From: a virus
Strand: one strand, 5' to 3'
DNA length: 53,402 bases
IMG/VR virus record: IMGVR_UViG_3300017782_000022
Coordinates: 1 to 53,402 of that record
The notes beneath the pieces are model-generated. The model had not been told where the DNA came from. It searched no databases and saw only the letters and a program-made list of their open reading frames with translations. Both the position numbers and the translations under genes were made by a program. Every line of letters starts with the position of its first letter. Position 1 is the first letter of the stretch. Below are positions 2,266-36,100 of this stretch, piece by piece.

Positions 2266-2528
2266 TATGTTAAATCCCTATGTTCAGGTCGACCAGCGAG
2301 TCGCTTTATACTTTTACCATCAAAGTCAACAGAGCGTATTTCCAGTATGTGGTCAGCAAGTTTGTAGCCCCGCTGGTTCGCCTGAATATCAAATTTATCA
2401 GCAGATTCTAAAATCTTAGTTCTTGCAGAAAACTCATCCTGTGCTCTATTTAAAAGCTTCATAGCTTCTATTGTTCCTATTTCTGGGTGTTGTTGATTTA
2501 TAATCTCAACCATTTCTTTAAGTTTCAT
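2265..2528 (-). CDS. Hypothetical head-tail connector-module protein
   Basis: 87-aa ORF, coupled to its neighbours. Confidence 0.7.
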   Translation of the reverse strand: MKLKEMVEIINQQHPEIGTIEAMKLLNRAQDEFSARTKILESADKFDIQANQRGYKLADHILEIRSVDFDGKSIKRLAGRPEHRDLT

Positions 2529-2529
2529 A

Positions 2530-2874: not shown

Positions 2875-3599
2875 TACTCTTTCCTCTCCCTTGTCATTCC
2901 TTCAAACTGGAACATTTGGTCGTACTCTTGAGCTATAATTTGTCTTTGGCTTTGTAGCCATTTATAATCTAATGCAAACTGTTGTTGTTCAGCGCTCATT
3001 GCACCTGATTTTGCTGATGCTAGTTCTACATCCTCATCATCTTCTATATAGTATCTAACTTTTTCCCATCCTTGAGAATTTTCACTAGGAGCACTATGAG
3101 AAGCGTCAAAGCTATCACTTATTGTAGCCAACGTGTCTCTCATGTCCATTAATTTTTTATCACATAATTTTTTAGCAGAATATAAAATTACTGCTCTATA
3201 CCATTCTTTTGGGAAGTTAGCTATAGCAGAAGTAGTCTGATTGGCGTTAGATACGGCCCCATACTGCACAATATTAGCTGAGGCACTAGTACCACTAGCA
3301 AATTGAGTTTGGAGCGGTATAACTGTATTACCACTTACATTCCCTAAACTATCATCAAAGTTTGTTTGTAAGTTGCCAGTTATCGTAGATACTAATTTAA
3401 AAGTATTTAAAGCTGGAGGCGTTGCTCCAGTATTAGTGCTTCTGTAAACTTTTCTACTCTTAATATCTAACAAGTCTTCTCTAGGAGGATTGTACAATCT
3501 TATACTAGTAGCTGTTCCGGTAACACTAGACACTTTTGAGGGCCCGGTTTCCTTGTCCTCTGAATCAATGTAAGTAAATCTGTAGTGATAAGTAGCCAT
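2874..3599 (-). CDS. Hypothetical virion structural protein
   Basis: 241-aa ORF with 1-nt overlaps at both ends. Lies between the capsid and tail genes. Confidence 0.75.
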   Translation of the reverse strand: MATYHYRFTYIDSEDKETGPSKVSSVTGTATSIRLYNPPREDLLDIKSRKVYRSTNTGATPPALNTFKLVSTITGNLQTNFDDSLGNVSGNTVIPLQTQFASGTSASANIVQYGAVSNANQTTSAIANFPKEWYRAVILYSAKKLCDKKLMDMRDTLATISDSFDASHSAPSENSQGWEKVRYYIEDDEDVELASAKSGAMSAEQQQFALDYKWLQSQRQIIAQEYDQMFQFEGMTRERKE

Positions 3600-16234: not shown

Positions 16235-16256
16235 TGTGCAACAAACTAGAGGTACT

Positions 16257-17111
16257 ATGTTAAAACCAATTAATCGTAAATCAATGAAGATTAGAGCATC
16301 AGGTAGAAGCTCTGATTTTATTAGTCCATCATTTGGGTTCGGTTGTTTATTAAATTGTTCTTATTGTTATATGAAGCGTCATATGAAAGAAGGATTAAAC
16401 TATGCAACAAACTTAGATGATATTTTATTAGCCATTGACAATCATGTCAAGAATGTATCAATTAATAAACCAAATCAAACAGACCCCGACTATATTACAT
16501 ACGACATTTCATGTAATGAAGACTTTGCACTACATAGTAAGTACTATGATTGGCAATATATATTTGAGTACTTTGTTTCACATGACAAAGCTAAGGCAAC
16601 ATTAGCAACTAAGATTATACCAAATAATTTCTTATCATATGACCCAAGTAATAAAGTTCGTATAAGATTCAGTCTTATGCCGCAGAAACTTTCATCTGTG
16701 CTAGAACCTAATACAAGTTTAATCTATGATAGGCTAAAAGCAGTAAATACATTTATAGATGCAGGTTATGATGTTCATCTAAACTTCTCTCCAGTAGTAG
16801 TTTACGAGGATTGGTTGCATGAATACTCTAAGTTGTTTGAACAGGTAAATTCACTTGTAAGGTACAAGGATAAAGTAAAAGCTGAGGTTATTTTTTTAAC
16901 TCATAACAAGAATAAACACGAATACAACAAGCAAGAAAGCCTAGGTGATGAAAGTTTGTTATGGCAACCAGAGATACAAGAAGCAAAAGTCTCACAATAT
17001 GGTGGTGATAATATCAGATATCAATGGGAATTAAAAAATCAGTTTATACATCAATTTAAAACACTACATAACAAGATTATACCTTGGAATACAATAAGGT
17101 ATATCTTTTAA
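16257..17111 (+). CDS. Radical SAM enzyme (cluster motif resembles the spore-photoproduct-lyase/COG1533 type)
   Basis: CxxxCxxC motif GCLLNCSYCYMKRH near the N-terminus. ATG 16257 has AGAGG upstream. The track start at 16236 is an in-frame GTG alternative. Confidence 0.75.
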   Translation: MLKPINRKSMKIRASGRSSDFISPSFGFGCLLNCSYCYMKRHMKEGLNYATNLDDILLAIDNHVKNVSINKPNQTDPDYITYDISCNEDFALHSKYYDWQYIFEYFVSHDKAKATLATKIIPNNFLSYDPSNKVRIRFSLMPQKLSSVLEPNTSLIYDRLKAVNTFIDAGYDVHLNFSPVVVYEDWLHEYSKLFEQVNSLVRYKDKVKAEVIFLTHNKNKHEYNKQESLGDESLLWQPEIQEAKVSQYGGDNIRYQWELKNQFIHQFKTLHNKIIPWNTIRYIF

Positions 17112-17120
17112 GGAGGACAC

Positions 17121-17417
17121 ATGATAGAGAATACATTACTATTTCTTTATATTAGTTTAGCAGTAGTAGTTACATATTTCATAGTATGGTTAACACGAAA
17201 CCTATTGATAGCAACTCAAGAGCGTGATGAATGGCGAGTATTGGCAGTAAATACGAATACTCAGTTACAAAATCTTGAACAACTAGTATACTGTGAAAAT
17301 AAGATAACAAAGTACCGTGATACTCTGTTACGCCCATTTAGGACGTCCACTCAATTGACTTGGAGTAAATCTATGCAGAGTGGCATAGAATCCACAAACC
17401 GCAACAAAGGAGAATAG
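17121..17417 (+). CDS. Small membrane protein (N-terminal TM plus helical region)
   Basis: 98 aa. N-terminus LLFLYISLAVVVTYFIVWL. AAGGAGG lies upstream of the ATG. Confidence 0.7.
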   Translation: MIENTLLFLYISLAVVVTYFIVWLTRNLLIATQERDEWRVLAVNTNTQLQNLEQLVYCENKITKYRDTLLRPFRTSTQLTWSKSMQSGIESTNRNKGE

Positions 17418-17420
17418 TCT

Positions 17421-17639
17421 ATGGCTAAAGTTTATGCGATATCTTTCCACTCAGGTGGTCAGGTACACGAACTGGAAGCAGATTCCCCCGCTGATATAGC
17501 ATCTGGCTGGGACTTATCTCTGGATAGTGTTGAAATCTTCGTTAATGAAGACAAAGCACAAGTAAGCGCAACCCTCAGAGATGGGGATTACGTTTCTTTC
17601 CAGAAGAATAAAGTCACTTCCGGTAGCTCTAAGGGCTAG
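17421..17639 (+). CDS. Ubiquitin-like beta-grasp protein (ThiS/MoaD-like) ending in Gly
   Basis: 72 aa. C-terminal pattern LRDGDYVSFQKNKVTSGSSKG-stop matches the ThiS/MoaD signature L.DGD.V.......G(G). AAAGGAG lies upstream. Confidence 0.65.
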   Translation: MAKVYAISFHSGGQVHELEADSPADIASGWDLSLDSVEIFVNEDKAQVSATLRDGDYVSFQKNKVTSGSSKG

Positions 17640-17657
17640 GGACTGATTAAGTTCTGT

Positions 17658-17686
17658 TGGGGTCGAATGTATCGGCCCCACTTTTA
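17658..17686 (+). terminator. Hairpin plus T-run between the Ubl and E2-like genes (attenuator/partial terminator)
   Basis: tggggtcg 17658-17665 pairs with cggcccca 17673-17680 (8 bp, one G-U). The loop is aatgtat, followed by cTTTTaa. Confidence 0.45.
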
Positions 17687-17707
17687 ATAACTAACAAAGG
17701 AGGTATC

Positions 17708-19111
17708 ATGAATACCAATTTAAAAAGATGCCTTATGGATTTATTTCCCAGTCTTAAAAGTATGGGAGGTGAAAGTAGGGACATTCAATTTAAACTTATA
17801 TCTGAACATTATGATATTGTAGACTTCAAGAACCTTGGAGACACAAATCATCCATATAGTGAGAAAGATGTAATAAATGAGTATTATTTTTCTCAAAGCT
17901 CACAAACTGTTAACGCACCATATCTTATTGTTAAATATGATAAAGTAGAAATGCGTGGTCGTAGAAAAGTAACATTTGCGCCGCAGTATGCATATATTCA
18001 GTTTGCAGGTACAGGAAATACTCCTATATTAAGAATGTATGAAAATACAGCAGTCGAAACTGGTGAATTTGGTAACAATTTCTCTATGAATCGTATTGAT
18101 GGCTGGGATAGACCTCTACATCCACATATTCAAAATAACAAACCATGTTTAGGTGCGTTTGAGAGTATGTTATATAAAGCATCAATGTCAAATCCGTTAG
18201 AATATTTTGCATTATTATCAAAGTTCTATAGAACATGGAATGTGCAAAGTCCCTTCTGGAATATTAATGACATGAGACCTTTGTATAGTAGAAGAGATGA
18301 AAATGGTGATAGAAAAAGACTACTAACTTCATTTGAACATGAAAGGTTAAAGCAGGTTGGTATTTCAGTGTTAACATTGCAAAAATACCTACCAACTATA
18401 GACATATCTAAGCTTCATTTATCAAGACTAAGTTATCCTTTAAGGGTTATGGACAGAATTGAAAGGACTTGGAATGATATGTTTTATGGTAATTTAACTC
18501 AAGAGTTCTTTTTAAGAGCTAGGCGTATATCTGCTTTTACAGATATTTGGTCTAGTGTTTACTCTAATATGAGAAAACTTGCTCGTCTTAATTATGTTTA
18601 TTACAAACAAACTGCTCCTGATGTAACAAAGTTAGAAGCAATGGTAGAGGGAGCAACGCTTTTCTTTGATATGGGCTTATGCGAAAAGGTAAAAAGCAAC
18701 TGGGATGAATCAATAGAAGAAAACGGTCAAGAGATATTTGAAGCATTAATAAATATGTCTCCTGATAGACTTTTAGATGCTGATGAAAGTTCAGATTACA
18801 GAAGAGAGCTCTTATTTAGTAATGACTTAATTAACTATTGGATGTTGTCTGATATGGAATGTGCTGAAATGTTATCAAGCTCTATACCGTATTGGAAAAG
18901 AGCTGGTAATGCGTTCAAAGAACCAGATGGAGAAATGCAAAGGTTTTGGCCCGAAGAGTTCGTAGAGTTAGATAAACATAATCAATACGAAAGTGGCAAA
19001 ATTGCAATAACTAAACTAGAAAAACAAAAGGAGAAAATAGCTAATGAAATTAGACATCTCGACAAAAACTCAGTCGAAAATTCAATACTTCAACAGCAGA
19101 TTCAGTTCTAA
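17708..19111 (+). CDS. E2 (UBC)-like protein with a long C-terminal extension
   Basis: LHPHIQNNKPCLGAFES (His at 18119-18121, Cys at 18146-18148) resembles the UBC HPN...C-L active-site flap. ATG 17708 has AAAGGAGG upstream. The track start at 17657 is TTG inside the hairpin. Confidence 0.5.
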   Translation: MNTNLKRCLMDLFPSLKSMGGESRDIQFKLISEHYDIVDFKNLGDTNHPYSEKDVINEYYFSQSSQTVNAPYLIVKYDKVEMRGRRKVTFAPQYAYIQFAGTGNTPILRMYENTAVETGEFGNNFSMNRIDGWDRPLHPHIQNNKPCLGAFESMLYKASMSNPLEYFALLSKFYRTWNVQSPFWNINDMRPLYSRRDENGDRKRLLTSFEHERLKQVGISVLTLQKYLPTIDISKLHLSRLSYPLRVMDRIERTWNDMFYGNLTQEFFLRARRISAFTDIWSSVYSNMRKLARLNYVYYKQTAPDVTKLEAMVEGATLFFDMGLCEKVKSNWDESIEENGQEIFEALINMSPDRLLDADESSDYRRELLFSNDLINYWMLSDMECAEMLSSSIPYWKRAGNAFKEPDGEMQRFWPEEFVELDKHNQYESGKIAITKLEKQKEKIANEIRHLDKNSVENSILQQQIQF

Positions 19112-19886
19112 AGAATGGTCTGGGCCTGCGTGGTATCGTTTATCGGCTGACAAGAATGGGTTTCCGGACAAGTTTGTCTTGGAACACTTTCATCCATTAG
19201 ACTTAGGTCATGGAACAGCAACAGAATGGGAAGCTAAAGACCTTGCAAAGGTGTTAAGAAGCACATATCAAACAATGCCAAAGTTAAAGGATTGTTATAT
19301 GGGCTTAATTCACAGTCATCATAGCATGGGTGCTTTCTTTTCAGGAACAGATACAAAAACCTTAGAAGAAATGGCACCTGATAAAGGTTTCTATTGTAGC
19401 TTAGTTGTAGCTACAGCTAAAGACCCTTTTGCTTTTGCATTTGCGTATAAAGACCAGTATGGTCAACCTCAAGTGTATGAAGCAGACTCAGACGATATAA
19501 TGACAGAAACACCAACAGCTAGTAAAGCATGGATAGCAATTGCAGACGGCATAGAGAAAAATGCTGCTCCTATAAATAACTATGCTATAGGAGCTGGTGG
19601 TCAGATATCAATGATGGGTGGTGGTTGGAACAGTCCTCAAAAATACTACAATAAAATCACTGATATTGAAAAAGCTGGTAATCCAGAATTTCGTAAATCA
19701 CATGATTATACTGAAGAGGAATGTACTGCTGTTGAGTCTATGGTTAAGGACTTAGAAGACGGTAAGATTAACTGGCTAGAGTTCCAAGAACAAATGGAAT
19801 TACAAAAGCTAGATGCATATGAATATTATGATAGAGTTCCAGATGATTATGCAGGTTACCAAGGATGGAGTGGCTATGGATACTAA
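19044..19886 (+). CDS. JAB/JAMM (MPN+) metalloisopeptidase
   Basis: Exact JAMM motif HSHHSMGAFFSGTD (HxHx7Sx2D, 19311-19352) with an upstream Glu (KEWSG). AAAGGAG precedes the ATG. It overlaps the E2-like ORF by 68 nt. Confidence 0.8.
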   Translation: MKLDISTKTQSKIQYFNSRFSSKEWSGPAWYRLSADKNGFPDKFVLEHFHPLDLGHGTATEWEAKDLAKVLRSTYQTMPKLKDCYMGLIHSHHSMGAFFSGTDTKTLEEMAPDKGFYCSLVVATAKDPFAFAFAYKDQYGQPQVYEADSDDIMTETPTASKAWIAIADGIEKNAAPINNYAIGAGGQISMMGGGWNSPQKYYNKITDIEKAGNPEFRKSHDYTEEECTAVESMVKDLEDGKINWLEFQEQMELQKLDAYEYYDRVPDDYAGYQGWSGYGY

Positions 19887-20553
19887 GTTCTTAAGAAACA
19901 AGGACTTAATTGACCAAAGTAAGTTGGATGAATTAACTATTGTAGGCTTGGGTGGCATCGGTTCTGCTGTTGTCACCCTAGCTAGTGCAATGGGATTTAA
20001 CAAGATAATAGGTTATGATGATGATACTTTAGAAGAGCATAACCTTTCAACTTGTATGTATTCTCATGAGTTTCTTCATAAAACAAAAGCTTACGCCGCT
20101 CAACAGACTGCTTTGCGTCACGGATGTCCTGATGTAATAATGGATGAAGCTAGATGGACTCTTGGTTCTGATTTACCTTTATCAAATAAAGTAATAATGG
20201 GCCCAGATAACATGGATGCTCGTATGGATATTTATCGTGGATGGAAAGATAACCCTGACAGAGAATGGCTTATAGACCTGCGTATGGGTGCTTTAGCTAT
20301 GGAAATAATAACAGTCACACCAGAAAACGATAACTTTTTAGATACTTGGATTCCACAGGGCGACAGTCCAGTAGAACCATGTACTGCTAAACATACTATT
20401 TTTACCGCATCAATGGTAGCAAGTATGGGTTTAAACCAAGTGTTAATGCTTGACAAAAAACCATACTATCAGTATATTTGGATTGGTCTTTTGCCTCTTT
20501 CAGTAACTAAAGAGAACCTCATTAGACCTAATGTAAAACAGGAGAGACAATAA
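19876..20553 (+). CDS. E1-like adenylating enzyme (ThiF/MoeB/UBA family), minimal 225 aa
   Basis: Rossmann loop IVGLGGIGS (19945-19962), DDDTLEEHNLS, GPDNMDAR, and a candidate catalytic Cys in VEPCTAKH (20380-20382). ATG 19876 has GGATGGAG upstream. The track start at 19813 is less likely. Confidence 0.8.
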   Translation: MDTKFLRNKDLIDQSKLDELTIVGLGGIGSAVVTLASAMGFNKIIGYDDDTLEEHNLSTCMYSHEFLHKTKAYAAQQTALRHGCPDVIMDEARWTLGSDLPLSNKVIMGPDNMDARMDIYRGWKDNPDREWLIDLRMGALAMEIITVTPENDNFLDTWIPQGDSPVEPCTAKHTIFTASMVASMGLNQVLMLDKKPYYQYIWIGLLPLSVTKENLIRPNVKQERQ

Positions 20554-20555
20554 CA

Positions 20556-21422
20556 ATGGAACTAAATATCCGTAAAGTATCTACGGACTGGGAAGAGATG
20601 CCTACTGGTCTGACTTATATGATAATAGGTCAACCTAAGACTGGTAAGACAACTGCAACTAGTTCGTGGAGCCCTAAGGGTCAAGAGGGCGTGTTGATGT
20701 TAGACACAGACCTTGGCTCAGACTTCGTAGATGGAGCAAACACTGTAACTATCACTTCTTTAAATGCACCTGTCAGAGAGAAAACAATCGATGGCAAAGT
20801 AGTTAAAGAAAATGGTAAACCAGTGTTGGAGGTGATTCCTCCTATAGAGCGTGGTCACTGCATCCGTAGTGGCAAAAACAAAGGTGAGCCCTTAGAGACA
20901 TACAGTATGATTGAGGTATATCTATATCTTAAAGACAACTGGGACAAATTACCTTATGACACTATAGTAATTGACACACTAGGTCAAGTCAATCGTTGGA
21001 TTGAAGACGTAGTAACTCAAGAACTAGGCATTAGTGAAATGGGTGAGGGTCAATGGGGTGCTGACTGGGGCAAAGCTCGTAAAAAACATCTAGACGTTGT
21101 AAAGCGATTCCAAGAACTTGTAAAGCAAAAAGGTGCAAACCTAGTGCTTGTAGTTCACAGTAAGACCAGTACTCTTACCGATGGCAAAGTTCAACTTATG
21201 CCGGAATTGCCTCGTGGTTTGGCTTATGGTTTAACTGCATCAGCTGATGTTATCGGCTATACAACAGCTTCAAAAGATGATGAAAAGTATTACATATCCT
21301 TTTTATCTTACGATGAACGTACTGTTGGCAGTAGACTAAGGCCATTAGCACAAAAGACGTTGCCTTTTAACTATAAAGCGATAGAAAATGAAGTTTTATC
21401 GTTCAAACCAGATAAGGAGTAG
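20556..21422 (+). CDS. RecA-superfamily ATPase (phage AAA_24/Sak4-like recombination ATPase)
   Basis: Walker A IIGQPKTGKTT and Walker B IVIDTLGQ. 288 aa. Sits in the replication/recombination module. Confidence 0.6.
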   Translation: MELNIRKVSTDWEEMPTGLTYMIIGQPKTGKTTATSSWSPKGQEGVLMLDTDLGSDFVDGANTVTITSLNAPVREKTIDGKVVKENGKPVLEVIPPIERGHCIRSGKNKGEPLETYSMIEVYLYLKDNWDKLPYDTIVIDTLGQVNRWIEDVVTQELGISEMGEGQWGADWGKARKKHLDVVKRFQELVKQKGANLVLVVHSKTSTLTDGKVQLMPELPRGLAYGLTASADVIGYTTASKDDEKYYISFLSYDERTVGSRLRPLAQKTLPFNYKAIENEVLSFKPDKE

Positions 21423-21424
21423 CG

Positions 21425-28039: not shown

Positions 28040-30154
28040 CTATTTTTCTTTATCTTCAATAGAAAACTTAAATCCCGGAGCTAATGGTGCGGCATATCCA
28101 AAGTTTTGCCTTAAAAAATCCTTAGCTAATGTTGTTTCTCTAACAGAAACACCAGAATGATAAATCTTTATAACTGGGTTGTCAGGTATAAACTTTCCTG
28201 CTGAATCAAATTGAGTTGATGAAACATCCATAAAAAGCTTTGCTTCATCTCCAAATTGCCGTTTAAATGTCCTTTCTATATCTACAACTTCATCAGATAA
28301 ATCTGAAATAAACTTTTTATGACTAACTCCACTAGGTAAAACATTATCTAAAAACTTTGTGAAGTCTAAACCGGGAGACGCTTGGTCTAAACTTGTTATA
28401 AGGCTGTTAACTACATCAAGCTTACGACTGAAGTTTCCTTCTTTTTGAATCTTATCTAATAAAGATTTTGCTGTATATCTTACATTGGACTCTTCTGACA
28501 TTATTTCATCAACCGCTTTTCTAAGTCTTTCTTTAGAACCGGTTTTTAAATTCCTTCCTTCAAAAAAACCATCTATTCTAATATTTTTTCCAATAGGGTC
28601 TTGTTTCATTACTCCGTCTATTTTTCTATATGGATTTAATTCAAGGATTCCCTCCATTTTTGTTCTATAGCTTATCATTTCACCATTGTACTTAAGCATT
28701 TTTTCACTATCACCAAGCCAGTTAGCTTGAACTTCTCTAATAGGGGTTTTTTCTCTTCTTTGAATAGTGTTTAAACCTTGTTTTTCTGAACTAACTCTAA
28801 CTTTTCCTATATAGTCAGGATTAGATAAACCTTGTTCTAACAAATTTTCTACTCTTTTAGTTTGTCTTTGAGCTTTTTTTGACAATAGTCCTAAAAGTTG
28901 AAGAGATGATTGACTCATGTTTGTACTAGTATATTCTGCACCTAATCCTAAAGTTTTTAATGCTTTTATTACATTATTAGTGTCATCTACTCCTTCTTTA
29001 TGTGCAAATCCTTCTAGCTTTTTCTTATGTTTTATAGGCACAAGGTCTGCTTCACTATCTAAACCAAATATATCTTTAAATCTTTTACCTTCATTATTAT
29101 ATAATTTATTAATTGTTACAGATAAAGCTTCATTACCCTCTTCAAACCTAGTATTCCTAGGGTTAACAGAAGATGCCCTAGAAGCTACTTCTTCACGTTG
29201 TCTGTAACTTAGTAACTGAGGAGGTATTTTACTATTAGGCTCTAATTTGATACTATACTTATCTCCATTTTTTGCTAAATAATGAATGTTAGCTTCCTGT
29301 TTAGAAGACCATATCCACTTTAAAAACCTTGTATCTGCTAGCTCATTTCCCTTTAAAACAATAGAGTTGTGGTCATTAAATTTTGTCAAATCTTTTGCCA
29401 TAGGTCTTATTTGCTTTTCAAGCTGTGTCGCTTGATAAGTAGTAAGATTTGGGTCATATTCATCAAGCTTTTTCATTAATGGAGCTAATTTTTTTGACAT
29501 ATTATGATGATGGTCAAGTATTTCGTCATTCCAATTTAATCTTTGAAAGTCGTCCCAGCTTTTATAAGGAGATGAATCAATAAAAGGCTTTGTTATAACC
29601 TTCATTGCTTCGTTTATTTCGTTCATATGGCTTTTTACAGCATTATCTCCCATTCTAGGAAGAGATAAATGACCTTGTGTAGTTCCTGCATTTGTCTCTA
29701 TCTTAAAATTATTATTAATATCTTCAATATCTCTTATTATCTTTGTTTTTAATTCACCAGTAAGAGCTTCTAGCCTAGGCATAAAGTCTTCAGGCATACC
29801 TTTTATAAGTTCAGATATCCCTTTATTACCACCTAAAACTCTATTTAATTGTTTTTTATAATTTGCTACAGCGTCTACTGCTTGAGTTTCAGTCCCTTGA
29901 CCTCCCGCAAATTGAGCACCACCATAACGTTGATTAAAACCTTCACGAAAAGCATCATCAATCTGCCCGTTTACAACACTTTTTACTTGTTCAACTTGTT
30001 CCTTGACATCAGTTATATCACCAAATGTTTTAGAGTTTTTAGAAAGTTGACCATATTTTCTTACGCCAGAGCCTACAACTTCTGCAATGTTTGACTCTAC
30101 AGCGGATGTTTTTCCCATTAACTTTAATGCTCTTGCAAATAAACTAATAGCCAT
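28040..30154 (-). CDS. Large hypothetical virion (internal/ejection-module) protein
   Basis: 704-aa ORF, TAATG-coupled to the giant gene and last gene of the leftward block. Confidence 0.8.
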   Translation of the reverse strand: MAISLFARALKLMGKTSAVESNIAEVVGSGVRKYGQLSKNSKTFGDITDVKEQVEQVKSVVNGQIDDAFREGFNQRYGGAQFAGGQGTETQAVDAVANYKKQLNRVLGGNKGISELIKGMPEDFMPRLEALTGELKTKIIRDIEDINNNFKIETNAGTTQGHLSLPRMGDNAVKSHMNEINEAMKVITKPFIDSSPYKSWDDFQRLNWNDEILDHHHNMSKKLAPLMKKLDEYDPNLTTYQATQLEKQIRPMAKDLTKFNDHNSIVLKGNELADTRFLKWIWSSKQEANIHYLAKNGDKYSIKLEPNSKIPPQLLSYRQREEVASRASSVNPRNTRFEEGNEALSVTINKLYNNEGKRFKDIFGLDSEADLVPIKHKKKLEGFAHKEGVDDTNNVIKALKTLGLGAEYTSTNMSQSSLQLLGLLSKKAQRQTKRVENLLEQGLSNPDYIGKVRVSSEKQGLNTIQRREKTPIREVQANWLGDSEKMLKYNGEMISYRTKMEGILELNPYRKIDGVMKQDPIGKNIRIDGFFEGRNLKTGSKERLRKAVDEIMSEESNVRYTAKSLLDKIQKEGNFSRKLDVVNSLITSLDQASPGLDFTKFLDNVLPSGVSHKKFISDLSDEVVDIERTFKRQFGDEAKLFMDVSSTQFDSAGKFIPDNPVIKIYHSGVSVRETTLAKDFLRQNFGYAAPLAPGFKFSIEDKEK

Positions 30155-33100
30155 TACTTATAATCTCCTGAACTTAAAATCTCACTATCTTGATATTTGG
30201 TTACTTGCTTTGCAAACTGCATATAAGGTAACCCTGTCATTTTTTCAAAACTCATCATTGGGTTTTCTAACATTCCTCCGGGGCCAGCAACATCTCTCAT
30301 TATTCTACCAAAAGGAAACATTGTCCACACTGTATAATCTGATAATTTAGCATAATCATCATTAACTAAACCCTTAAATAATGTAGGCAATAACCTTAAA
30401 CTAGGAGGTGTAATTAATTGCAATGGAGCTACTGCTGTAGGATAAGCTCCAAAAAAGGCCCTATCCCTCTCTTTTTCGTCACCAAGCAACCAGTCAGCAG
30501 TGTCTTGGAAATAACTCCAAGGTGCAGGTAGTGTGCTTTCAAATAATGAATACATAAACACATTACTCATTGCCATCATAAATAAATCAGCCGTAGCTAG
30601 GCGTTTAAAACGCTCCATTTCGACAGTTCCTTCTTGATAACCTTGTAAATTTGCTTCTTTTAAGATATCTTTTCTAAATCTTACAGCATTCCAAGCCCAT
30701 AATTGGAACCTAGTCATCATTTTACCAAGAGAAGTAGCGGCAAACATTGGTCTAAAAGGTGCAGAATAAAGAAATTGAGTTGCTTTTACATTCTTTTTAG
30801 CCATTTCTATTAGAATTGGGTGGTTCCATTCCTTGATAACACCGCCAAATCTTTGCCTAGCCTGTACTAATCCAGACATAAATGCATCTCTTCTTAAAAT
30901 TCTTTCAGGTTCACGCATAAACCAACCAGCTTTTTGAAATATAGTTTCAGTAATACCATTACTTTTTGCTAATTCCAACAATGAACTATCTTTAAAGTTA
31001 GGGTCTTTCTTTATTTTGCTAACTGCTTGACTCATAAATTTAGACCACTTTTCTCCCTTTATTTCAGGGTTTAAAGTAGCTTCATACATTAAAAATTCTT
31101 CAATAACTCCAAACTTTTTAACTGCTGCTTCAACATCTTTCATATTTTTCCATTCAGGATTAACATAAGTCCTTAAGTAGTCAATATCACGACCTTTTTT
31201 AAAGTTGTCCCAACCAGTATTAATAATAGTATGCACTGACCCGCCATAGAGATTGGCGACAGCACTCTTGGGATGAGCAAGGAGAGAGGCCAGTGCATAT
31301 TTTGCTTCCATATTACTAAGCCTAGCTATAGCAGACATATCATAAGGGCCTCCTAATTCAGGAAATCTCTTTTGGGCTTCAGTCTTACTTATACCAAGCT
31401 TATTAGCTATACTATTTAATTTTTTTGTAACCTCTGAATCAGCAGTAAAGGCGTAAAAACTTCCCTTTAACTTCATATCTGGGTTTTTCATTACAGCTTC
31501 AGGTATCTTTGTAGGATAACCCATAGCTCCTTGAGTGTATAAATTAAAGAAAGACCTCCAAGAATTAATTAAATCTATATCTTGTCCTTCAGCCTTTCCC
31601 TTTCCTCCTGCTTTTAAGTAGTTCTGATAAGACCAGTCTACAATTGCATCTTTAGTTATAACCTGAGACGCTAATCTATAGTATGTATCAGTAATATTCT
31701 TGATATAAGTTTCATAAGCTTCTGGAGTTCTCTCCCATCCGTCAATGTGTGCAGTTCTACTAAACTGATTTCCCATTTTATTGTTATGAAACCAAGTAAT
31801 TCTATCTTTACTAACTTTCTTTTTTGTAGCAATCTCTTGCATAATGCCCTGCATTTGGTCAAAATGCTCACCAAACTTATCAGTTGCCATAAAGTCGCCA
31901 GTCATTTGATTGTGATGTATTACTATTTTCTTTACTTCTCTATCCTTTTCTTTCTTAGACATAGATTTATTGTTTAGAATATAATCAATACCTCTTTCCA
32001 TCTGTCTTCCAGCTTCAGCTCTGTTAAAATTTAAATGAGGAAAGTATATATCAAAATCATATCTACCTGTAGATTCACTATCTTTAGGTATAGATTCCAT
32101 TAATGATTTTCTTTCCTTTGCATATTGAGCTGGTATTTGACTAATCATAATTCTTCTAGCAACCCACCTAAGGCCATCAACACCTAAGTCCATGTTAAAT
32201 CTTTCGCCACCTTCAATTGATTTAACCATATCTGAAAAGAATTTCTTCTTTACGGCTCTAAAATAATCATATTCACTCTTTTTGTTACCTTCTTTGTTAT
32301 ATTCTAGAGCTTTATATTTATCTAAAGCACCCGGTTTACCTGTTAGCCAAGTATGAGCTTCCTCATTTTTCTTGGTATATGCTTCATTTATCTCCTTTAC
32401 TATTTGTTCTCCAGTGAGCGATTCTACTTTGTTTCTTTTTTGAACGAGGAAAGTTTGTTTTTTAAGTGTTTCCCAATCGTGTTTTTTAGGGATTTCACGA
32501 TGTGCTTTTTCATAAGCTTCTTTAATCCATAAGTACATAGAGTTATCAACGGTTTCATATTTTTCCTTCCATTTTTTAGGTACATTTATTTCTCTTAACG
32601 CAATTGCAATTTCATGAAGGTCATACCCTCTTTTAAGATTCATATATGGAGCTAACTCTTCACGAAACCTACCCTTTTCGCTTTCAGATGCATCAATGCT
32701 CCATTCTTGTCCCTTATGTATATAGTCTTGTATGACCTCCATTATTCCCGTGGGTTTCATTGTCCGTCCAGATATTATATTCCCATGAGAGTCTTTAAAC
32801 ATTCCTCTTCTCTCAAGAAGCAGAATCTCTTTCCTCATTAAATCTTGATTAATAGCTTCAGGAAACATAGAGTAATGCCACTTACTTAGAGCAGGTAGTT
32901 TCTTTTTAATTTTACTAAATGTTTTCTGATACCAACTTCCAGTCAAAGTATCATCTAACCATCTATCAAATACTTTTAAATCATGTAAATCGACTTTATT
33001 TATATCCTTATTAAATCTGTCTCGCATCAAACCATTTAAGTCTCTCCCCACGATATTAGGAAATGCAATTTCAATCTTTTGTTTTAAAGATGATAACAGC

Positions 33101-36100
33101 TGTCTATGCTCTTTCTTTTCAAGAGTTCCCTCTTTTATACCTTCAAATGGCCCTATTTCGTCTATATATTTTCTTGTTTTTGCATCGTAGTCACTAGCTT
33201 CTAACGGTTGTCCTTTAACTTTTTCCCCTGTTTTTGGGTCAAATATTTCTATAGGCTTATTTGATTCAACAGCTTCTTGTTTAATTCTAGCTTTATCAGA
33301 CTCAGTAACTATATCAATAGACCTGTCAAATATTTTTCTATATTCCTGAAAAAACTCTTTTTTACTAGAATTACTTATAGCTTCTGATTCTATACCAAGC
33401 TTAGTAGTCGATGTATTACTAGCCATTTCACGCAAATTATTTATTTCATTAGTAAATTCTTCTGACCATATAGGAGATTTGTAAGATTCTACTCTTTTAT
33501 TTAACTCATGCAAAGTACCTCTAGAATATGTACCAAGCATTATAGACTCAAACAGACTAGTTTCTTTATCGTTTAATCCCTCTGCTCTTTTAAATAAAGT
33601 AATTCTTCTATCTATTTCTGCTTTATTCATAGCAGAAGATGTCTTTTCTGGAGCTATCTGTAACTCCATTTCTCTAATAAAATTAGCTTCAGCTTCTGAC
33701 AACGTACTCAAGCCTTTTACAGGGCTACTTTTTCTTTTTGCAAATAGATAACTAGCCTTCTTTATTTTGTCAGCTTCAGTCCATATCTGCTTAATTCTTT
33801 CTTTAGAAATACCTTCAGTCTTTGAGCTTATCATCTTTAAAGATGCAAAATCAGAAATATCATCACTAATAAATCTTTCTGCTTTAGCCATAATGTCACG
33901 CATTATTTCAGCTCTATGTTCCATGTTTTCTTCAGGGTTTAGCTTTCTTCTGCCATTTAAAAAGCCGTTATAAGCCTTACCACTAAATAATTTTGGTTTA
34001 AAAGAACGACTATTAACGTCTAATTGAGAATTAAATCCTTGTTGTTCAAATAAATTGTTCTTATATATGTCTTTTAAGTAGGTATTCATAGGTGTTTTAA
34101 AACTACCCCTGCCTAAAATAGACTTTAAGTCACCTAAACTATCAGCTAATTTGTTATGTTCTTCATAAGATTTCTCAAATTCTGTAAATTTTATTCTTCT
34201 TAATATACTATCACTAAGGTCTACGCCTCTTAATGTCTCAGCTAATTTTGGAAACAATGTATTAGATTCTACTCCACCCAAAGCTTCATTAGCTTCTTCA
34301 AGGTACATTTGTATTTCTTCTGGAAACCAGCGCCTTCCTTCTGCTAAATTTCTACCAAACAATACAGAGTTTATACGACTTAGGGATTTTATTAGTCCAG
34401 CTCTCATTTGACCTTCGTTATTACTAAACATCTTAGAAAACTTATCATGTTTCTTGCCATTTTTAAATCTTACTTCAAAATCAAAAGCTCTTTTAGCGGC
34501 TTCTTTAAAAAATAAATCTCTTCCTCTTAGGCCTGCTTCATCCATAGGGTCAGAGCCTAATGCTATACTTGCCCTTGTTATACCTCTAAAGCTTTCCATT
34601 GATTTAGCATCTGTTTTTGGTTTAATAACTATATCAAACTTTTTATAAAGTCCTTTTGTTTGAGGAATCTTAAGCTCACCACTTTCTGTACCTCTTATTG
34701 CGGCGTATGCACTTGTTAGCACAGCTTTATTTACAACAGCTGGCCCAAGTTGTTGGCGTCCACCAGAAGCTCCAAATGATGCTTTCATTCTTTGTAAAGG
34801 ACTAAGTTTTAATACTGAACTATTTATCTTATCTAAAGTCTCTTTATCTGTAAAAGCCAATATGTCTCTATACTGCCTTCCTGATATAGGGTCTATCTCA
34901 GTTTTGTTATTAGATACTGTTCCATCCTTCTTGTAAAACTCTTGTTTTTGAGAGTTATACATATCCATCCACTCTTCTTTAAAACCTCCACCTCTCATGC
35001 CATCCTTAGATAAACCACCAAAGAATCCAAATGCTTTATCACCATCTAAATCGGCTCCTCCTAGCGCTTCCATAGTTCTTGGATGTAAGAGTACCCCTAT
35101 TCCTTTTACCCCTGTAAAACCCTTAAATTTAAGCTTATGAGCACCACTCATTGAGTCCATAGGAGTTCTTTGTACAATAGCGTTTAGAGTTTCTTCTATT
35201 TGACGTTTAACTTTACCTCTATATCTACCTGCATTGTAATCATTCCATATATCTTCAAGTCTCATACTGCCTTGAAAGGCTTTAGAGTAAATTTTTAAAT
35301 CCTTATAGTTATTATCAAGAAAGAAAATATCATCTCTCTTTTCTAATAAAGAGGTGTTTTGACCCTTTACACGCTGATTTCTTAAGCCTATCTCATAAGG
35401 TCTCATCCTTGATGCAAAAGAGTTTTCTAATTTTGGCCTTACTAATTGGTTTACAACCCAATTTCTAATAATAGTTTGCCTATAAGGAGTTACATACTTA
35501 TGCATTAGGCCTGCAAGTGAGTCTCCTACAAGCTCCTGTATCTTTTCATGGACAACATTTAACTCATACTTCTGTCCTTTTACAGCTTCATATTCTTCTT
35601 TTGTTAGCTCTCCTTCTTGTAATGCCATTTCAGCATCAGTCATTAAGTCCATTCTTTGTATTTTTCTATAGACTTCAGTAGCAAACTTCTCTAAACCGGG
35701 AGTTTTTAACGCAACTAATAGCTCTTTTGTTCCAATATTGTCAATATTATTTAGTAAATCTCTTTTATATGCTTCATTAGTAGGGTCTTTCATAAGCAAT
35801 TGCAACTTACCGTTCATTTCAGGCTGACCTAGAAATGATTTTCTACTCAGCTGGTCATACATATTTTCAATAGTTTCCGGTTGTATCCTAGACCAAGAAT
35901 AAGGTGTAAGGTTAGAAAGCATTTGCTTTGGTAATCTTTGCATATCTAAAGAGTGATTGTCAAATCTTTCAGAAAATATACCTTTCATTTCATTAGGAGC
36001 TAGTAAATAATCTTGTCCACCCTTTAGTTCAATTCCTTTTTTACTACGAGTTAACTCACCAAATTCTCTTGAACCATATTGTTTAGCGGCAGTTTCTGGA

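What the first reader, a model, noticed from the sequence alone, without database searches (positions are those of the whole stretch)
17421..20553. Phage-encoded ubiquitin-like conjugation cassette: Ubl, E2-like, JAB isopeptidase and E1-like in four consecutive coupled genes
Seen in sequence:
- A 72-aa beta-grasp-style protein ends exactly in Gly (..LRDGDYVSFQKNKVTSGSSKG-stop).
- A 467-aa protein carries a UBC-flap-like LHPHIQNNKPCLGAF.
- A JAMM protein has the exact motif HxHx7Sx2D.
- A minimal ThiF/UBA-type E1 has GLGGIGS and a candidate Cys in EPCTAKH.
- All four have SD sites and overlapping or abutting boundaries, so they form one expression unit.

Established knowledge: Ubl-E1-E2-JAB operons exist in bacteria. 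Examples are Bil antiphage systems, which modify phage tail proteins, and the CBASS Cap2/Cap3 modules. Both are host-encoded.

Inference: here the full set sits in the early/middle operon of a phage with no lysogeny genes. That is the opposite side of the conflict. It could be a counter-defence (a decoy Ubl or a deconjugating JAB), a way to modify host proteins, or a virion-maturation step.

The long C-terminal extension of the E2-like protein (roughly 18400-19111) may supply target recognition. The Ubl needs no C-terminal processing.
Basis: partly seen in the sequence, partly recalled or inferred. Interest (0 to 1): 0.9.

Follow-up and report, generated by a model that had tools for sequence, protein, structure and literature searches.

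The report
Phage-encoded ubiquitin-like conjugation gene cassette
A marine phage, and relatives that include the cultured gut phage crAss001, carry a strictly co-conserved four-gene set in their DNA-replication gene block: a ubiquitin-like protein, a Cys-containing E2-like protein, a JAB peptidase and a minimal E1, which looks like a virus-owned protein-tagging system whose target is unknown.

Summary
All four ORFs exist as described, with Shine-Dalgarno (SD) motifs and overlapping or abutting boundaries.

- **72-aa protein:** it models as a beta-grasp, with TtuB and SUMO as the top fold matches.
- **JAB:** it has an intact JAMM motif.
- **ThiF:** it is a minimal E1 with a single invariant Cys.
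- **467-aa protein:** it belongs to an unannotated family of about 45 clusters. All members keep HPH-x6-8-C-x-G after a helix and beta-meander. A UBC fold is suggested (hhalign P=0.005, in active-site register) but not proven, because Foldseek gave nothing significant.

the terminal Gly72 is not conserved. The invariant C-terminus is ...K-x-S-Gly68, followed by a tail of 0 to about 220 aa, so the Ubl is made as a precursor and must be trimmed, presumably by the JAB.

**Synteny:** the order Ubl, HPH-Cys protein, JAB, ThiF held in all 36 metagenomic phage loci with enough flank. It recurs in crAss001 (gp79-gp76), in four of five other Steigviridae loci read (interrupted by an HNH gene in cr106_1) and in Flavobacterium phage FpV4, always in the replication module. 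GenBank labels these genes "thiamine biosynthesis", "metalloprotease" and "hypothetical".

**Best reading:** a phage-encoded Ubl-conjugation cascade (confidence 0.55).

**Untested lead:** the E2-like C-terminus carries a beta-clamp-binding-like peptide.

The parts
17421..17639 (+). Ubl precursor gene (72 aa): a beta-grasp protein and the most conserved component of the cassette.
   Evidence: The ORF is. The AF2 model has b-b-a-b-b-b topology at pLDDT 81.6. Foldseek gives TtuB, SUMO, Mth1743 and Caldiarchaeum ubiquitin at probability 1.0. Residues 1-68 are 51-100% identical across 9 loci, against 24-82% for the E2-like protein. Against L001, L003 and L004 there are 21-22 synonymous and 7-10 nonsynonymous codon differences.
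17622..17636 (+). Codon of invariant Gly68 (17622-17624), the predicted mature C-terminus, followed by the non-conserved 4-aa tail SSKG (17625-17636).
   Evidence: All homologues end ...[K/T/E]-S-G followed by a variable tail of 0-82 aa. In crAss-like phages and FpV4 the same ...K-I/V-K/R-S-G junction precedes a 100-220 aa C-terminal region. In cr106_1 an HNH gene sits just after this junction, leaving a 92-aa Ubl that ends KSG-KF. The tail is disordered in the model, with pLDDT below 50 for residues 68-72.
17708..19111 (+). HPH-Cys protein (467 aa), the candidate E2-like carrier/ligase. It has an N-terminal alpha/beta domain (about aa 1-200) and a variable all-helical C-terminal half.
   Evidence: The start is ATG 17708 with an AAAGGAGG SD. 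The AF2 model has pLDDT 84 and pTM 0.72, with a helix, five to six strands, a loop and two helices, followed by long helices. The family has 10 close and about 45 remote clusters, none with a Pfam hit in the members scanned. It is the least conserved of the four proteins.
18119..18154 (+). Candidate active-site motif H138-P-H140-x6-C147-L-G149. The C147 codon is 18146-18148.
   Evidence: H, P, H, C and G are invariant in 31 divergent relatives, together with W177 and S181. The Cys is also kept in the most divergent IMG/VR members, where the G is replaced by A. hhalign against 9 canonical E2s aligns HPH with HPN and C147 with the catalytic Cys (score 24.06, P 0.005). None of 40 column shuffles reached that score.
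19076..19108 (+). Conserved C-terminal peptide ENSILQQQIQF of the HPH-Cys protein, a short linear motif of type Q-x-x-[LIM]-(x)-[FL].
   Evidence: The motif lies in the last 14 aa of 40 of 57 dereplicated family C-termini, against 14 of 499 other ORFs of at least 100 aa in the same loci. A stricter form is found in 17 of 57 against 1 of 499. This stretch also overlaps the JAB start, so dual coding may add to its conservation.
19044..19886 (+). JAB/MPN+ metallopeptidase (280 aa). Predicted to trim the Ubl tail and possibly to deconjugate.
   Evidence: Pfam Prok-JAB scores E 9e-6, 26 bits against a cutoff of 25. PADLOC JAB is weak. The true start, MKL..., overlaps the upstream gene and is conserved in L001 and L007. 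tblastn hits the crAss001 gp77 'metalloprotease' and FpV4 gp51 at E 1e-9 to 4e-15.
19311..19352 (+). JAMM motif H90-S-H92-H-S-M-G-A-F-F-S100-G-T-D103, with the upstream acidic residues E61/E63.
   Evidence: The motif is invariant across 9 loci. Divergent members have HxH-x9-SxxD.
19876..20553 (+). Minimal ThiF/E1-type adenylating enzyme, about 225 aa from ATG 19876. The ORF opens at 19813.
   Evidence: Pfam ThiF scores E 6e-12. NCBIfam and PADLOC hits to ThiF, MoeB, Cap2 and BilD cover only the Rossmann region and fall far below cutoffs. The PDB profile search hits MccB, UBA5 and SAE2 at E 5e-5 to 8e-3.
19945..19965 (+). Nucleotide-binding loop GLGGIGS of the E1.
   Evidence: The loop is invariant in 9 loci.
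20380..20382 (+). The only invariant Cys of the E1, in (E/A)PCT(A/M)KHTIF. It is the candidate thioester (crossover-loop) Cys.
   Evidence: The alignment of 9 loci is. C81 and C105 are not invariant, and there are no CxxC zinc pairs.

Best explanation
The cassette is a phage-encoded ubiquitin-like protein-conjugation system expressed with the replication and recombination genes.

Proposed steps:
1. The 72-aa Ubl is made as a precursor. The JAB/JAMM peptidase removes whatever follows the invariant Ser-Gly68 (4 aa here).
2. The minimal ThiF-type E1 adenylates Gly68 and probably takes it onto its single invariant Cys.
3. The Ubl passes to Cys147 of the HPH-Cys protein. Its N-terminal alpha/beta domain acts as a very divergent E2 (HPH standing in for HPN).
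4. Its fast-evolving helical C-terminal half and C-terminal peptide choose the partner or target.
5. The JAB can also reverse the modification.

Shown:
- the gene set;
- the beta-grasp fold;
- the JAMM and E1 motifs;
- the invariant C-terminal Gly with variable tails;
- the invariant HPH...C motif;
- strict co-conservation inside phage replication modules.

Inferred:
- every chemical step;
- the E2 role;
- protein (rather than sulfur) transfer;
- the target.
For: - **Component identities:**
- **Precursor logic:** conservation stops exactly at SG. Tails run from 0 to about 220 aa, two homologues end at SG-stop, and cr106_1 has a natural split at that point.
- **Conservation order:** Ubl, then E1, then JAB, then the HPH-Cys protein. 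This is the pattern expected for a modifier, its enzymes and a specificity factor. The Ubl is under strong purifying selection.
- **E2-like evidence:** H-P-H-x6-8-C-x-G is invariant in 31-43 relatives and in divergent IMG/VR members. In the model a helix and beta-meander precede the motif and two helices follow it, which is UBC order. hhalign against canonical E2s gives P 0.005 in the correct active-site register, with 0 of 40 shuffles as high. The only recognisable folds among the weak Foldseek hits are UBC/RWD proteins: Atg3, CENP-O/Mcm21 and a giant-virus E2.
- **Co-conservation:** the gene order was the same in 9 of 9 inspected metagenomic loci and 27 of 27 IMG/VR loci with at least 3.3 kb upstream. 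It also holds in crAss001, cr126_1, DAC15, cr111_1, cr128_1 and FpV4, and in cr106_1 with an HNH gene and a separate 130-aa ORF inserted after the Ubl.
- **No sulfur-pathway neighbours:** there is no PP-loop or CxxC motif in the 467-aa protein.
Against: - The UBC fold is unproven. No Pfam (UQ_con, Prok-E2_A-E), PADLOC (BilB, E2) or NCBIfam hit was found at E up to 1-10.
- The PDB profile search found nothing.
- Full-length Foldseek gave no hit better than E 0.47 in the PDB.
- The active-site loop is the least confident part of the model, with pLDDT below 50 at residues 140-146.
- The closest structural match of the Ubl is TtuB, which is also a sulfur carrier.
- E2-independent conjugation (the SAMP/UbaA or TtuB/TtuC type) would work without an E2.
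- No target, no E3 and no experimental data exist.
Confidence: 0.55

Rival explanations
1. Sulfur-carrier system. The E1 adenylates the Ubl, which is converted to a C-terminal thiocarboxylate using host persulfide. The sulfur is then delivered to a nucleoside or cofactor. The JAB only matures the carrier, and the 467-aa protein is the sulfur-using or sulfur-donating enzyme with a Cys persulfide.
For: - The Ubl's best fold match is the sulfur carrier TtuB, and it also matches the ThiS/MoaD-like protein Mth1743.
- The E1 hits ThiF and MoeB models weakly.
- Tail trimming of sulfur carriers by JAMM peptidases is known from my own knowledge (QbsE/QbsD and CysO/Mec+), not tested here.
- An SPL-like radical-SAM gene lies just upstream in the window and in L002, and an ORF with a similar N- and C-terminus lies upstream in L060.
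Against: - ThiF and MoeB scores are 23-29 bits against cutoffs of 159-376.
- No rhodanese domain was detected on the E1, and no cysteine desulfurase, ThiG/ThiH, MoaE or TtuA-like PP-loop protein was found. The 467-aa protein has no SGGxDS or CxxC motif.
- The radical-SAM gene is absent from most loci.
- The fast-evolving helical half and C-terminal docking peptide of the 467-aa protein fit a specificity factor better than a metabolic enzyme.
Confidence: 0.13
2. E2-independent conjugation or a non-E2 fourth protein. The E1 alone conjugates the Ubl, as in archaeal SAMP/UbaA or Thermus TtuB/TtuC. The HPH-Cys protein would then be the main substrate, a scaffold or E3-like adaptor, or a Cys/His metal-binding protein or peptidase, rather than a thioester carrier.
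For: - No significant sequence or fold match to any E2 was found.
- HxH...C could equally be a metal site.
- In crAss-like homologues the His-to-Cys spacing grows to about 16 residues and HPH becomes HSH.
Against: - The HPH/Cys motif is invariant over very large distances, while the rest of the protein drifts to 24% identity.
- The marginal E2 match is in the correct register.
- The secondary-structure order matches UBC.
Confidence: 0.2
3. Counter-defence module. The phage Ubl and JAB act mainly as a decoy and deconjugase against host Ubl-based immunity (Bil, CBASS Cap2/Cap3 or Bub type), with the E1 and E2-like proteins serving to load the decoy.
For: - The component set is the same as in host Bil systems.
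- The E1 gives weak PADLOC hits to Cap2 (E1-E2) and BilD models.
- The early-to-middle genomic position is typical of anti-defence genes.
Against: - The cassette is a fixed, vertically conserved part of the replication module, next to Sak4 and the primase or primase-helicase. This holds from marine podophages to crAss001 and FpV4, which is unlike accessory anti-defence genes.
- No similarity to BilA, BilB or BilC was detected.
- The extreme conservation of the Ubl argues for a conserved partner set.
Confidence: 0.1

Closest known systems
Bil (BilABCD) bacterial ISG15-like antiphage system
   Same: It has the same four parts: a Ubl with a C-terminal Gly, an E2, a JAB deubiquitinase and an E1, all in one operon. 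The proposed adenylate to thioester to isopeptide logic is also the same (bioRxiv 10.1101/2023.09.04.556158 and PMC10557695 abstracts).
   Different: Bil is host-encoded and defensive, whereas this cassette sits in a phage replication module. PADLOC found no BilA, BilB or BilC similarity, and BilD scored only 18.5 bits on the Rossmann region. The E1 here is about 225 aa with one Cys. The E2-like protein is 467 aa with a large helical extension.
Prokaryotic Ubl-JAB-E1-E2 operons of Iyer, Burroughs and Aravind 2006 (class 6d and related; PMC1779556)
   Same: These are operons with a Ubl, a JAB, an E1-like and an E2-like protein on mobile elements. Their E2-like proteins are divergent, with altered His/Cys signatures.
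   Different: Those operons are bacterial or on ICEs and plasmids. The only phage case in that paper is the lambda/T1 TAPI-TAPK tail-assembly pair, which lacks E1 and E2. The Pfam Prok-E2 families do not match the protein here.
Type II CBASS Cap2/Cap3
   Same: E1 and E2 chemistry is paired with a JAB that trims or reverses the modification. The best NCBIfam and PADLOC hits of the E1 are Cap2-type models.
   Different: Cap2 is an E1-E2 fusion that conjugates the CD-NTase itself. Here there is no CD-NTase and no fusion, a separate Ubl is present, and the scores are far below cutoffs (28.8 against 320 bits).
Thermus TtuB/TtuC(/TtuD) and archaeal SAMP/UbaA/JAMM1
   Same: The Ubl fold is closest to TtuB. 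All have a minimal E1 and a JAMM partner. These systems show that one Ubl can serve both sulfur transfer and protein conjugation.
   Different: Those systems are cellular, lack an E2, and are linked to tRNA thiolation or MoCo enzymes that are absent here.
Caldiarchaeum subterraneum ubiquitin operon (Ub precursor, Rpn11-like JAMM, E1, E2, RING)
   Same: A Ubl precursor is processed by an operon-encoded JAMM before E1/E2 use (PMC6043591 abstract). Caldiarchaeum ubiquitin is among the fold matches.
   Different: That operon has a canonical UBC E2 and a RING E3 and is cellular. Here the E2-like protein is unrecognisable to family models, and no RING protein is present.

Membership tests
Beta-grasp ubiquitin-like modifiers / ThiS-MoaD-like carriers | Beta-grasp fold (b-b-a-b-b). 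| tested here: met
   The AF2 model has pLDDT 81.6, with strands 2-8, 14-20, 37-41, 44-46 and 57-62 and a helix at 23-30. Foldseek matches TtuB, SUMO and ubiquitin at probability 1.0 and TM up to 0.74.
Beta-grasp ubiquitin-like modifiers / ThiS-MoaD-like carriers | Conserved C-terminal Gly on a flexible tail, exposed directly or after processing. | tested here: met
   S67-G68 is invariant in every homologue inspected, and the downstream tail varies from 0 to about 220 aa. Actual cleavage was not tested.
Beta-grasp ubiquitin-like modifiers / ThiS-MoaD-like carriers | Match to the curated family models (Pfam ThiS, ubiquitin, Prok_Ub and similar). | tested here: not met
   There was no Pfam, NCBIfam, PHROG or PADLOC hit at E up to 1-10.
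JAMM/MPN+ metallopeptidases | E...HxHx7Sx2D zinc site. | tested here: met
   The site comprises E61/E63, H90, H92, S100 and D103. It is invariant in 9 loci. Pfam Prok-JAB scores 26 bits against a cutoff of 25.
E1/ThiF/MoeB adenylating superfamily | Rossmann fold with a Gly-rich ATP loop, an N-terminal Arg finger and a DN(M) Mg/adenylate motif. | tested here: met
   Pfam ThiF scores 45.7 bits against a cutoff of 28.1. F-x-R-N-x-D-L-I, GLGGIGS and (P/L)DNM(D/E) are invariant. Assigning these motifs to their roles rests on established knowledge of MoeB and ThiF.
E1/ThiF/MoeB adenylating superfamily | Membership of the ThiF or MoeB equivalogs (sulfur-carrier E1s). | tested here: not met
   NCBIfam ThiF and MoeB models score 23-29 bits against cutoffs of 159-376. 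There are no CxxC zinc motifs and no detected rhodanese domain.
E1/ThiF/MoeB adenylating superfamily | Catalytic Cys that forms the E1~Ubl thioester. | tested here: inconclusive
   There is one invariant Cys, in (E/A)PCTxKHTIF, at the expected crossover region. The chemistry was not tested.
UBC/E2 superfamily (including Prok-E2 families) | UBC alpha/beta fold. | tested here: inconclusive
   The order of secondary-structure elements fits. However, the best Foldseek PDB hit is at E 0.47, and only weak Atg3, RWD and giant-virus E2 hits appear at E 2-5.
UBC/E2 superfamily (including Prok-E2 families) | HPN-type motif about 8-10 residues before a catalytic Cys. | tested here: met
   H138-P-H140-x6-C147 is invariant in the family. 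hhalign aligns it to HPN...C85 of UBE2D2 (P 0.005, 0 of 40 shuffles as high).
UBC/E2 superfamily (including Prok-E2 families) | Match to the curated family models (PF00179, Prok-E2_A-E, PADLOC E2/BilB). | tested here: not met
   No hit was found for the window protein, for 10 full-length relatives, or for 31 core domains at E up to 10.
Bil antiphage system | BilA-D homologues in a host defence context. | tested here: not met
   The only hit is a weak BilD Rossmann match (18.5 bits). The context is a phage replication module.
PRTRC (ParB-related, ThiF-related cassette) | PRTRC_A and PRTRC_ThiF equivalog scores, together with ParB. | tested here: not met
   The scores are 12.9 bits against 101.8 and 17 bits against 144.75. 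No ParB was seen among the neighbours scanned.

The most novel reading that the evidence does not exclude
The cassette is a viral counterpart of PCNA ubiquitination and SUMOylation. The HPH-Cys E2-like protein would dock on the host beta sliding clamp, or another replisome hub, through its conserved C-terminal Q-x-x-[LI]-x-F peptide. Examples are QQQIQF here and QVPLSFE, QSELF and HQLSFEAI in relatives, which resemble the bacterial clamp-binding motifs QL[SD]LF and QLxLxL. It would then attach the phage Ubl to the clamp or to clamp-bound host proteins, redirecting the host replication machinery to phage DNA. The JAB would mature the Ubl and reset the mark. This would be the first Ubl-conjugation system owned by a bacteriophage and the first Ubl control of bacterial DNA replication. 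It is testable in crAss001 with Bacteroides intestinalis and in FpV4 with Flavobacterium psychrophilum.
Probability: 0.1. Interest if true: 0.93.

Novelty: new variant of a known kind. Interest (0 to 1): 0.78.

Why it matters
Every characterised bacterial Ubl-conjugation system (Bil, CBASS Cap2/Cap3, Bub) is host-encoded and works against phages. This cassette is a complete candidate set on the virus side. It is not a sporadic accessory gene. It is a fixed part of the replication module of a broad phage assemblage, including crAss-like Steigviridae, among them the cultured Bacteroides phages crAss001 and DAC15. In GenBank these genes are labelled only 'thiamine biosynthesis protein', 'metalloprotease domain' and 'hypothetical'.

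If the cascade conjugates proteins, it would be a new mode of host takeover. It would also define a very divergent E2-like family. Because crAss001, DAC15 and FpV4 are cultured, the idea can be tested directly.

If the system instead proves to be a sulfur carrier, it would point to an unknown thio-modification made during phage replication.

Tried and rejected
- **GenBank phage searches for the E2-like gene:** blastn of 17000-21000 and tblastn of the 467-aa protein found nothing. An IMG/VR scan with the single 467-aa protein also found nothing.
- **PDB profile searches:** the full-length family (A1), the core domain (A6), the JAB (A3) and the Ubl (A2) gave only chance-level hits.
- **Pfam at E up to 10:** scans of all family members found no E2 or Ubl family. 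PADLOC found no BilA, BilB or BilC.
- **Foldseek of the full-length 467-aa model:** the PDB search gave no significant hit. BFVD gave one uncharacterised viral protein, A0A516LW79, at E 1e-5.
- **Single-sequence links to crAss phages:** profile-versus-sequence comparisons with crAss001 gp78/gp79 and FpV4 gp52/gp53 were not significant (P 0.02-0.8). Profile-versus-profile comparison with the crAss gp78 family reached only P 0.002-0.003, although the register was correct. Homology of the E2-like and Ubl genes between the marine and crAss groups therefore rests mainly on synteny, motifs, and the significant JAB and ThiF matches.
- **The search for related loci:** The GTDB genome scan with ThiF patterns gave no confirmed hit. 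That scan used only two peptide patterns, so absence from bacterial genomes is not proven.
- **Literature searches:** I tried crAss, ThiF, MPN and ubiquitin terms, jumbo phages, and phage-encoded Ubl. None found a paper that describes this cassette. One look-up by PMC id (PMC5736458, from my memory of a 2018 crAss-like family paper) was not held. Prior mention in subscription papers cannot be excluded.
- **Explanations considered and rejected:**
  - Lambda TAPI/TAPK-type tail assembly was rejected because an E1 is present and the genes sit in the replication module.
  - PRTRC was rejected because the scores are far below cutoffs.
  - MccB-like peptide adenylation was rejected because only the Rossmann region matches and a folded beta-grasp substrate is present.

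Full report
**1. What is in the sequence**

The interval 17421-20553 holds four consecutive + strand ORFs:
- 17421-17639, 72 aa;
- 17708-19111, 467 aa from the ATG (the ORF opens at TTG 17657);
- 19044-19886, 280 aa;
- 19813-20553, 246 aa.

AAGGAG-type Shine-Dalgarno motifs precede the first three starts. For the fourth gene, the ATG at 19876 has a GGATGGAG motif and agrees with the N-termini of homologues. The E1 is therefore most likely 225 aa and overlaps the JAB gene by 11 nt. The 467-aa gene and the JAB gene overlap by 68 nt. Gene callers missed this in several relatives, but re-reading shows the same MKL... start there.

The neighbours are an SPL-like radical-SAM gene and a small membrane protein upstream. 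Downstream lie a Sak4/AAA_24 annealing protein, a 203-aa protein and a primase-helicase. The window equals a whole 53,402-nt contig. It carries a P22-type portal, a terminase and a major head protein, no tRNA gene, and no close relative among GenBank phages.

**2. The four proteins**

*Ubl.* No family model matches it. An AF2 model built on 12 homologues has pLDDT 81.6 and the b-b-a-b-b-b order of a beta-grasp. Foldseek returns TtuB (TM 0.71-0.74, rmsd 2.2), SUMO, Mth1743, Caldiarchaeum ubiquitin and many ubiquitin-family chains, all at probability 1.0.

*JAB.* It has E61/E63, H90-x-H92-x7-S100-x2-D103. It just passes the Pfam Prok-JAB threshold, at 26 bits against 25.

*E1.* It is a clear ThiF-superfamily Rossmann protein (Pfam E 6e-12). 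It scores far below the ThiF, MoeB, Cap2 and PRTRC equivalog cutoffs. Across nine loci down to 47% identity, the invariant features are F-x-R-N-x-D-L-I, GLGGIGS, H-N-[LI]-S, D-N-M and I-D-[LM]-R-M. There is one invariant Cys, in (E/A)PCT(A/M)KHTIF (codon 20380-20382). There are no CxxC zinc pairs.

*The 467-aa protein.* It has no hit in Pfam, NCBIfam, PHROGs or PADLOC. The word-indexed search found only 10 relatives. An exhaustive profile search of 1.84 billion representatives found 45, at E down to 9e-4. The 10 remote members scanned with Pfam had no domain hit.

In an alignment of 31 divergent core regions, the invariant residues are H138, P139, H140, C147, G149, W177 and S181. The Cys is also kept in the most divergent IMG/VR members.

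The AF2 model (pLDDT 84, pTM 0.72) shows these elements in order:
- N-terminal helices;
- a five-to-six-strand beta meander;
- a low-confidence loop that carries HPH...C;
- two helices;
- an all-helical C-terminal half with two very long helices.

**3. Is the 467-aa protein an E2?**

The evidence is suggestive but not decisive.

For:
- The motif H-P-H-[IV]-x5-C-L-G resembles the E2 signature HPN[IV]-x6-C-[LV]. One member even reads HPHINADGDICYG, against HPNINSNGSICLD in UBE2D2 (the UBE2D2 sequence is from my own knowledge).
- The order of secondary-structure elements is that of UBC.
- hhalign of the 31-sequence core profile against nine canonical E2s scores 24.06 (P 0.005). It aligns HPH with HPN, C147 with the catalytic Cys, and the following helix with E2 helix 2. 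The reversed E2 alignment scores 11.2, and none of 40 column shuffles reaches 24.06 (maximum 23.3).
- Among otherwise random weak Foldseek hits, the recognisable folds are UBC/RWD: Atg3, CENP-O/Mcm21 and a Bodo saltans virus E2, at E 2-5.

Against:
- No HMM-level hit to any E2 family was found, even at E up to 10.
- PDB profile searches found nothing.
- No significant Foldseek hit was obtained.

**4. Correction: the Ubl is a precursor**

Comparative data contradict this. In 12 close homologues (71-99% identity), conservation ends at ...N-K-V-[TS]-S-G68. What follows varies: SSKG, SSRG, SDIVDFALR, CDIVDFALR, STCIVAQALDSQ, C, S or NQ. In distant loci the end is ...K-x-K-V-x-S-G, followed by K, S, V or a 20-aa tail.

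In 27 IMG/VR loci the motif is [K/T/E]-S-G plus 0-82 aa. Two proteins stop exactly at SG.

In FpV4 and in five of the six Steigviridae loci read (crAss001, cr126_1, DAC15, cr111_1, cr128_1), the gene immediately upstream of the E2-like gene encodes a protein of about 200-310 aa. I read its first ~85-100 residues as the counterpart of the Ubl: they end N-K-K-I-[KR]-S-G (K-Q-V-K-S-G-G in FpV4) and are followed by a long, low-complexity C-terminal region. That N-terminal region was not modelled, and its profile comparison with the marine Ubls was not significant. In cr106_1 an HNH endonuclease gene lies just after this junction. It leaves a stand-alone 92-aa ORF ending KKIKSG-KF, and a separate 130-aa ORF downstream.

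The invariant Gly is therefore G68 (codon 17622-17624). The operon-encoded JAMM peptidase is the obvious candidate for exposing it, as shown for the Caldiarchaeum Ub/Rpn11 pair (PMC6043591 abstract).

**5. Co-conservation**

The order small Ubl, HPH-Cys protein, JAB, ThiF was found in every locus that had enough sequence:
- L001, L002, L003, L004, L006 and L007/L008, which are partly truncated;
- the remote L009, L011, L012 and L013;
- all 27 IMG/VR loci with at least 3.3 kb upstream of the ThiF match. Loci that my first regular expressions missed were inspected by eye and have the same four genes, with HxH-x9-SxxD JABs and HPH...C-x-A-G motifs.

Usually Sak4, a protein of about 200 aa and a primase-helicase follow. 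In L013, Sak4 is replaced but the cassette stays.

Identity to the window proteins falls in the order Ubl (51-100%), E1 (47-97%), JAB (44-90%), HPH-Cys protein (24-82%). The Ubl codons show 21-22 synonymous against 7-10 nonsynonymous differences to L001, L003 and L004. The conservation is therefore selection on the protein.

**6. Link to cultured phages**

tblastn with the E1 and the JAB hits crAss-like Steigviridae and the Flavobacterium psychrophilum phages of the FpV4 group. The Steigviridae include crAss001, DAC15/17, PhiCrAssBcn isolates, cr106_1, cr111_1, cr126_1, cr128_1 and Kolpuevirus. E-values run from 6e-16 to 1e-9.

In crAss001 the order is primase, gp79 (Ubl fusion), gp78 (444 aa, hypothetical, with YMHSHV-x16-PCTG), gp77 ('metalloprotease domain', overlapping gp78 by 62 nt) and gp76 ('thiamine biosynthesis protein ThiF'). 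A further gene and UDG follow. The same order holds in FpV4 gp53-gp50 and in four of the five other Steigviridae read; cr106_1 keeps it but has an HNH gene and a separate 130-aa ORF between the Ubl and the E2-like gene.

Profile-profile comparison of the marine core with the gp78 family gives P 0.002-0.003 over 100-112 columns, with HPH/HSH and PCLG aligned. Single-sequence comparisons are not significant. Homology of the E2-like and Ubl genes between the two groups is therefore inferred from synteny plus motifs. Homology of the JAB and E1 genes is demonstrated.

No bacterial genome in the GTDB representative set gave a confirmed hit, but only two peptide patterns were scanned.

**7. Mechanism proposed**

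Shown:
- the gene set, the folds and the motifs;
- the invariant Gly with variable tails;
- the invariant Cys in the E1 and in the HPH-Cys protein;
- tight coupling of the genes;
- strict co-conservation in replication modules.

Inferred, from established E1-E2 chemistry and by analogy with Bil, Cap2/Cap3 and archaeal Ub operons:
1. The JAB trims the tail.
2. The E1 adenylates Gly68 and forms a thioester.
3. The Ubl moves by transthioesterification to C147.
4. The Ubl is transferred to a Lys of a target, chosen by the variable helical half.
5. The JAB can reverse the modification.

My confidence that this is a protein-conjugation cascade with an E2-like carrier is 0.55. My confidence that the Ubl, E1 and JAB form one functional system acting on Gly68 is about 0.85.

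Rivals, which overlap with one another and with the main reading (the counter-defence reading concerns purpose rather than chemistry), so the figures need not sum to one:
- a sulfur-carrier system (0.13);
- E2-independent conjugation, with the fourth protein as substrate, adaptor or metal protein (0.2);
- a decoy and deconjugase counter-defence (0.1).

**8. An untested lead on the target**

The HPH-Cys proteins end in a conserved short peptide. Examples are:
- ...ILQQQI[SQ]F;
- ...QQV[HP]LSFE;
- ...Q[SGTA][EQ]LF...;
- ...HQLSFEAI;
- ...NQLSIETF;
- ...VQIxxLNL.

In FpV4 the end is ...SEQNQVPL.

A loose pattern, Q-x-x-[LIM]-(x)-[FL] in the last 14 residues, is present in 40 of 57 dereplicated family C-termini. 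It occurs in 14 of 499 other ORFs from the same loci. A stricter form is present in 17 of 57 against 1 of 499. The family members are homologous, so this measures conservation, not independent enrichment. The stretch is also dual-coded with the JAB start.

From my own knowledge, the peptide resembles bacterial beta-clamp-binding motifs (QL[SD]LF and QLxLxL). Together with the fixed position among replication genes, this suggests that the cassette acts at the replisome. Nothing here tests that idea.

**9. Novelty and value**

Ubl-E1-E2-JAB operons are known in bacteria (PMC1779556; Bil; CBASS; Bub, PMC11601596). The searchable literature yielded no description of such a cassette in phage genomes or in crAss-like phages. 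Subscription papers could not be searched. Database annotation is misleading ('thiamine biosynthesis') or absent.

I rate the finding a new variant of a known kind:
- the component logic is known;
- it sits on the viral side;
- it is embedded in the replication module;
- its E2-like family is unrecognised;
- its Ubl is made as a precursor or fusion protein.

Interest is 0.78.

Noticed in passing
window 19076-19108 (+); also the C-termini of P0022-P0062 and L015 6012-6038: The E2-like proteins end in a conserved Q-x-x-[LI]-(x)-[FL] peptide. It resembles bacterial beta-clamp-binding motifs and is far commoner there than in other ORFs of the same loci (40 of 57 against 14 of 499). The stretch is dual-coded with the JAB start.
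   Followed up: partly
window 19854-19883 (+): The JAB protein ends in a Gly/Tyr-rich tail (GYQGWSGYGY). Similar tails occur in many relatives (GYGYGGYYGY, SYGGYNY, GGGYYGF) but not in L011. Its function is unknown.
   Followed up: no
window 16236-17111 (+); L002 6522-7376; L060 1049-1909: A spore-photoproduct-lyase-family radical-SAM gene (NCBIfam TIGR03886, E 4e-88 but below the cutoff) lies two genes upstream of the Ubl. It is also annotated in L002 (PF20903), and L060 has a 287-aa ORF there with a similar N- and C-terminus (not scanned against family models). It is absent from most other loci, so it is not part of the conserved cassette.
   Followed up: partly
window 17121-17417 (+): A 98-aa protein with an N-terminal hydrophobic helix and ERDEWR and LRP[FY]R motifs lies directly upstream of the Ubl. 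It is conserved at 41-52% only within the near clade (L001, L003, L004, L007). No counterpart is recognisable in distant loci.
   Followed up: partly
L016 (crAssphage cr106_1) 2199-3402: An HNH endonuclease gene sits right after the KSG end of the Ubl domain. It splits what is a single fusion gene in crAss001 into a 92-aa Ubl ORF and a 130-aa C-terminal ORF.
   Followed up: yes
window 30154-38823 (-) and 42116-46900 (-): Two giant ORFs (2889 and 1594 aa) have no Pfam or PHROG hit. The larger one has a single GADLDGDKA motif at residue 1258. This is reminiscent of the DxDGD metal site of double-psi beta-barrel RNA polymerases, such as the virion RNA polymerase of crAss-like phages. If so, it would be a possible further link to that group.
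   Followed up: no
window, whole: No DNA polymerase domain was recognised in any ORF scanned. The replication set seen consists of Sak4, a primase-helicase, a Gam-like protein and an HNH nuclease. The phage may therefore depend on the host polymerase.
   Followed up: partly
window 17391-21424 (gene starts): Strong AAGGAG Shine-Dalgarno motifs precede the cassette genes and their neighbours. The only cultured phages with the homologous cassette infect Bacteroidota, which from my own knowledge make little use of SD sequences. The host of this phage therefore remains open.
   Followed up: no
window 50645-51493 (-): A 282-aa protein has collagen triple-helix repeats (Pfam PF01391, E 1.7e-26). It is probably a fibre or tail component.
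   Followed up: no
BFVD entry A0A516LW79 (474 aa): This was the only significant fold match of the 467-aa model (Foldseek E 1.3e-5, probability 1.0, 12% identity). It is an unnamed viral protein of similar length and is probably a further family member in UniProt.
   Followed up: no
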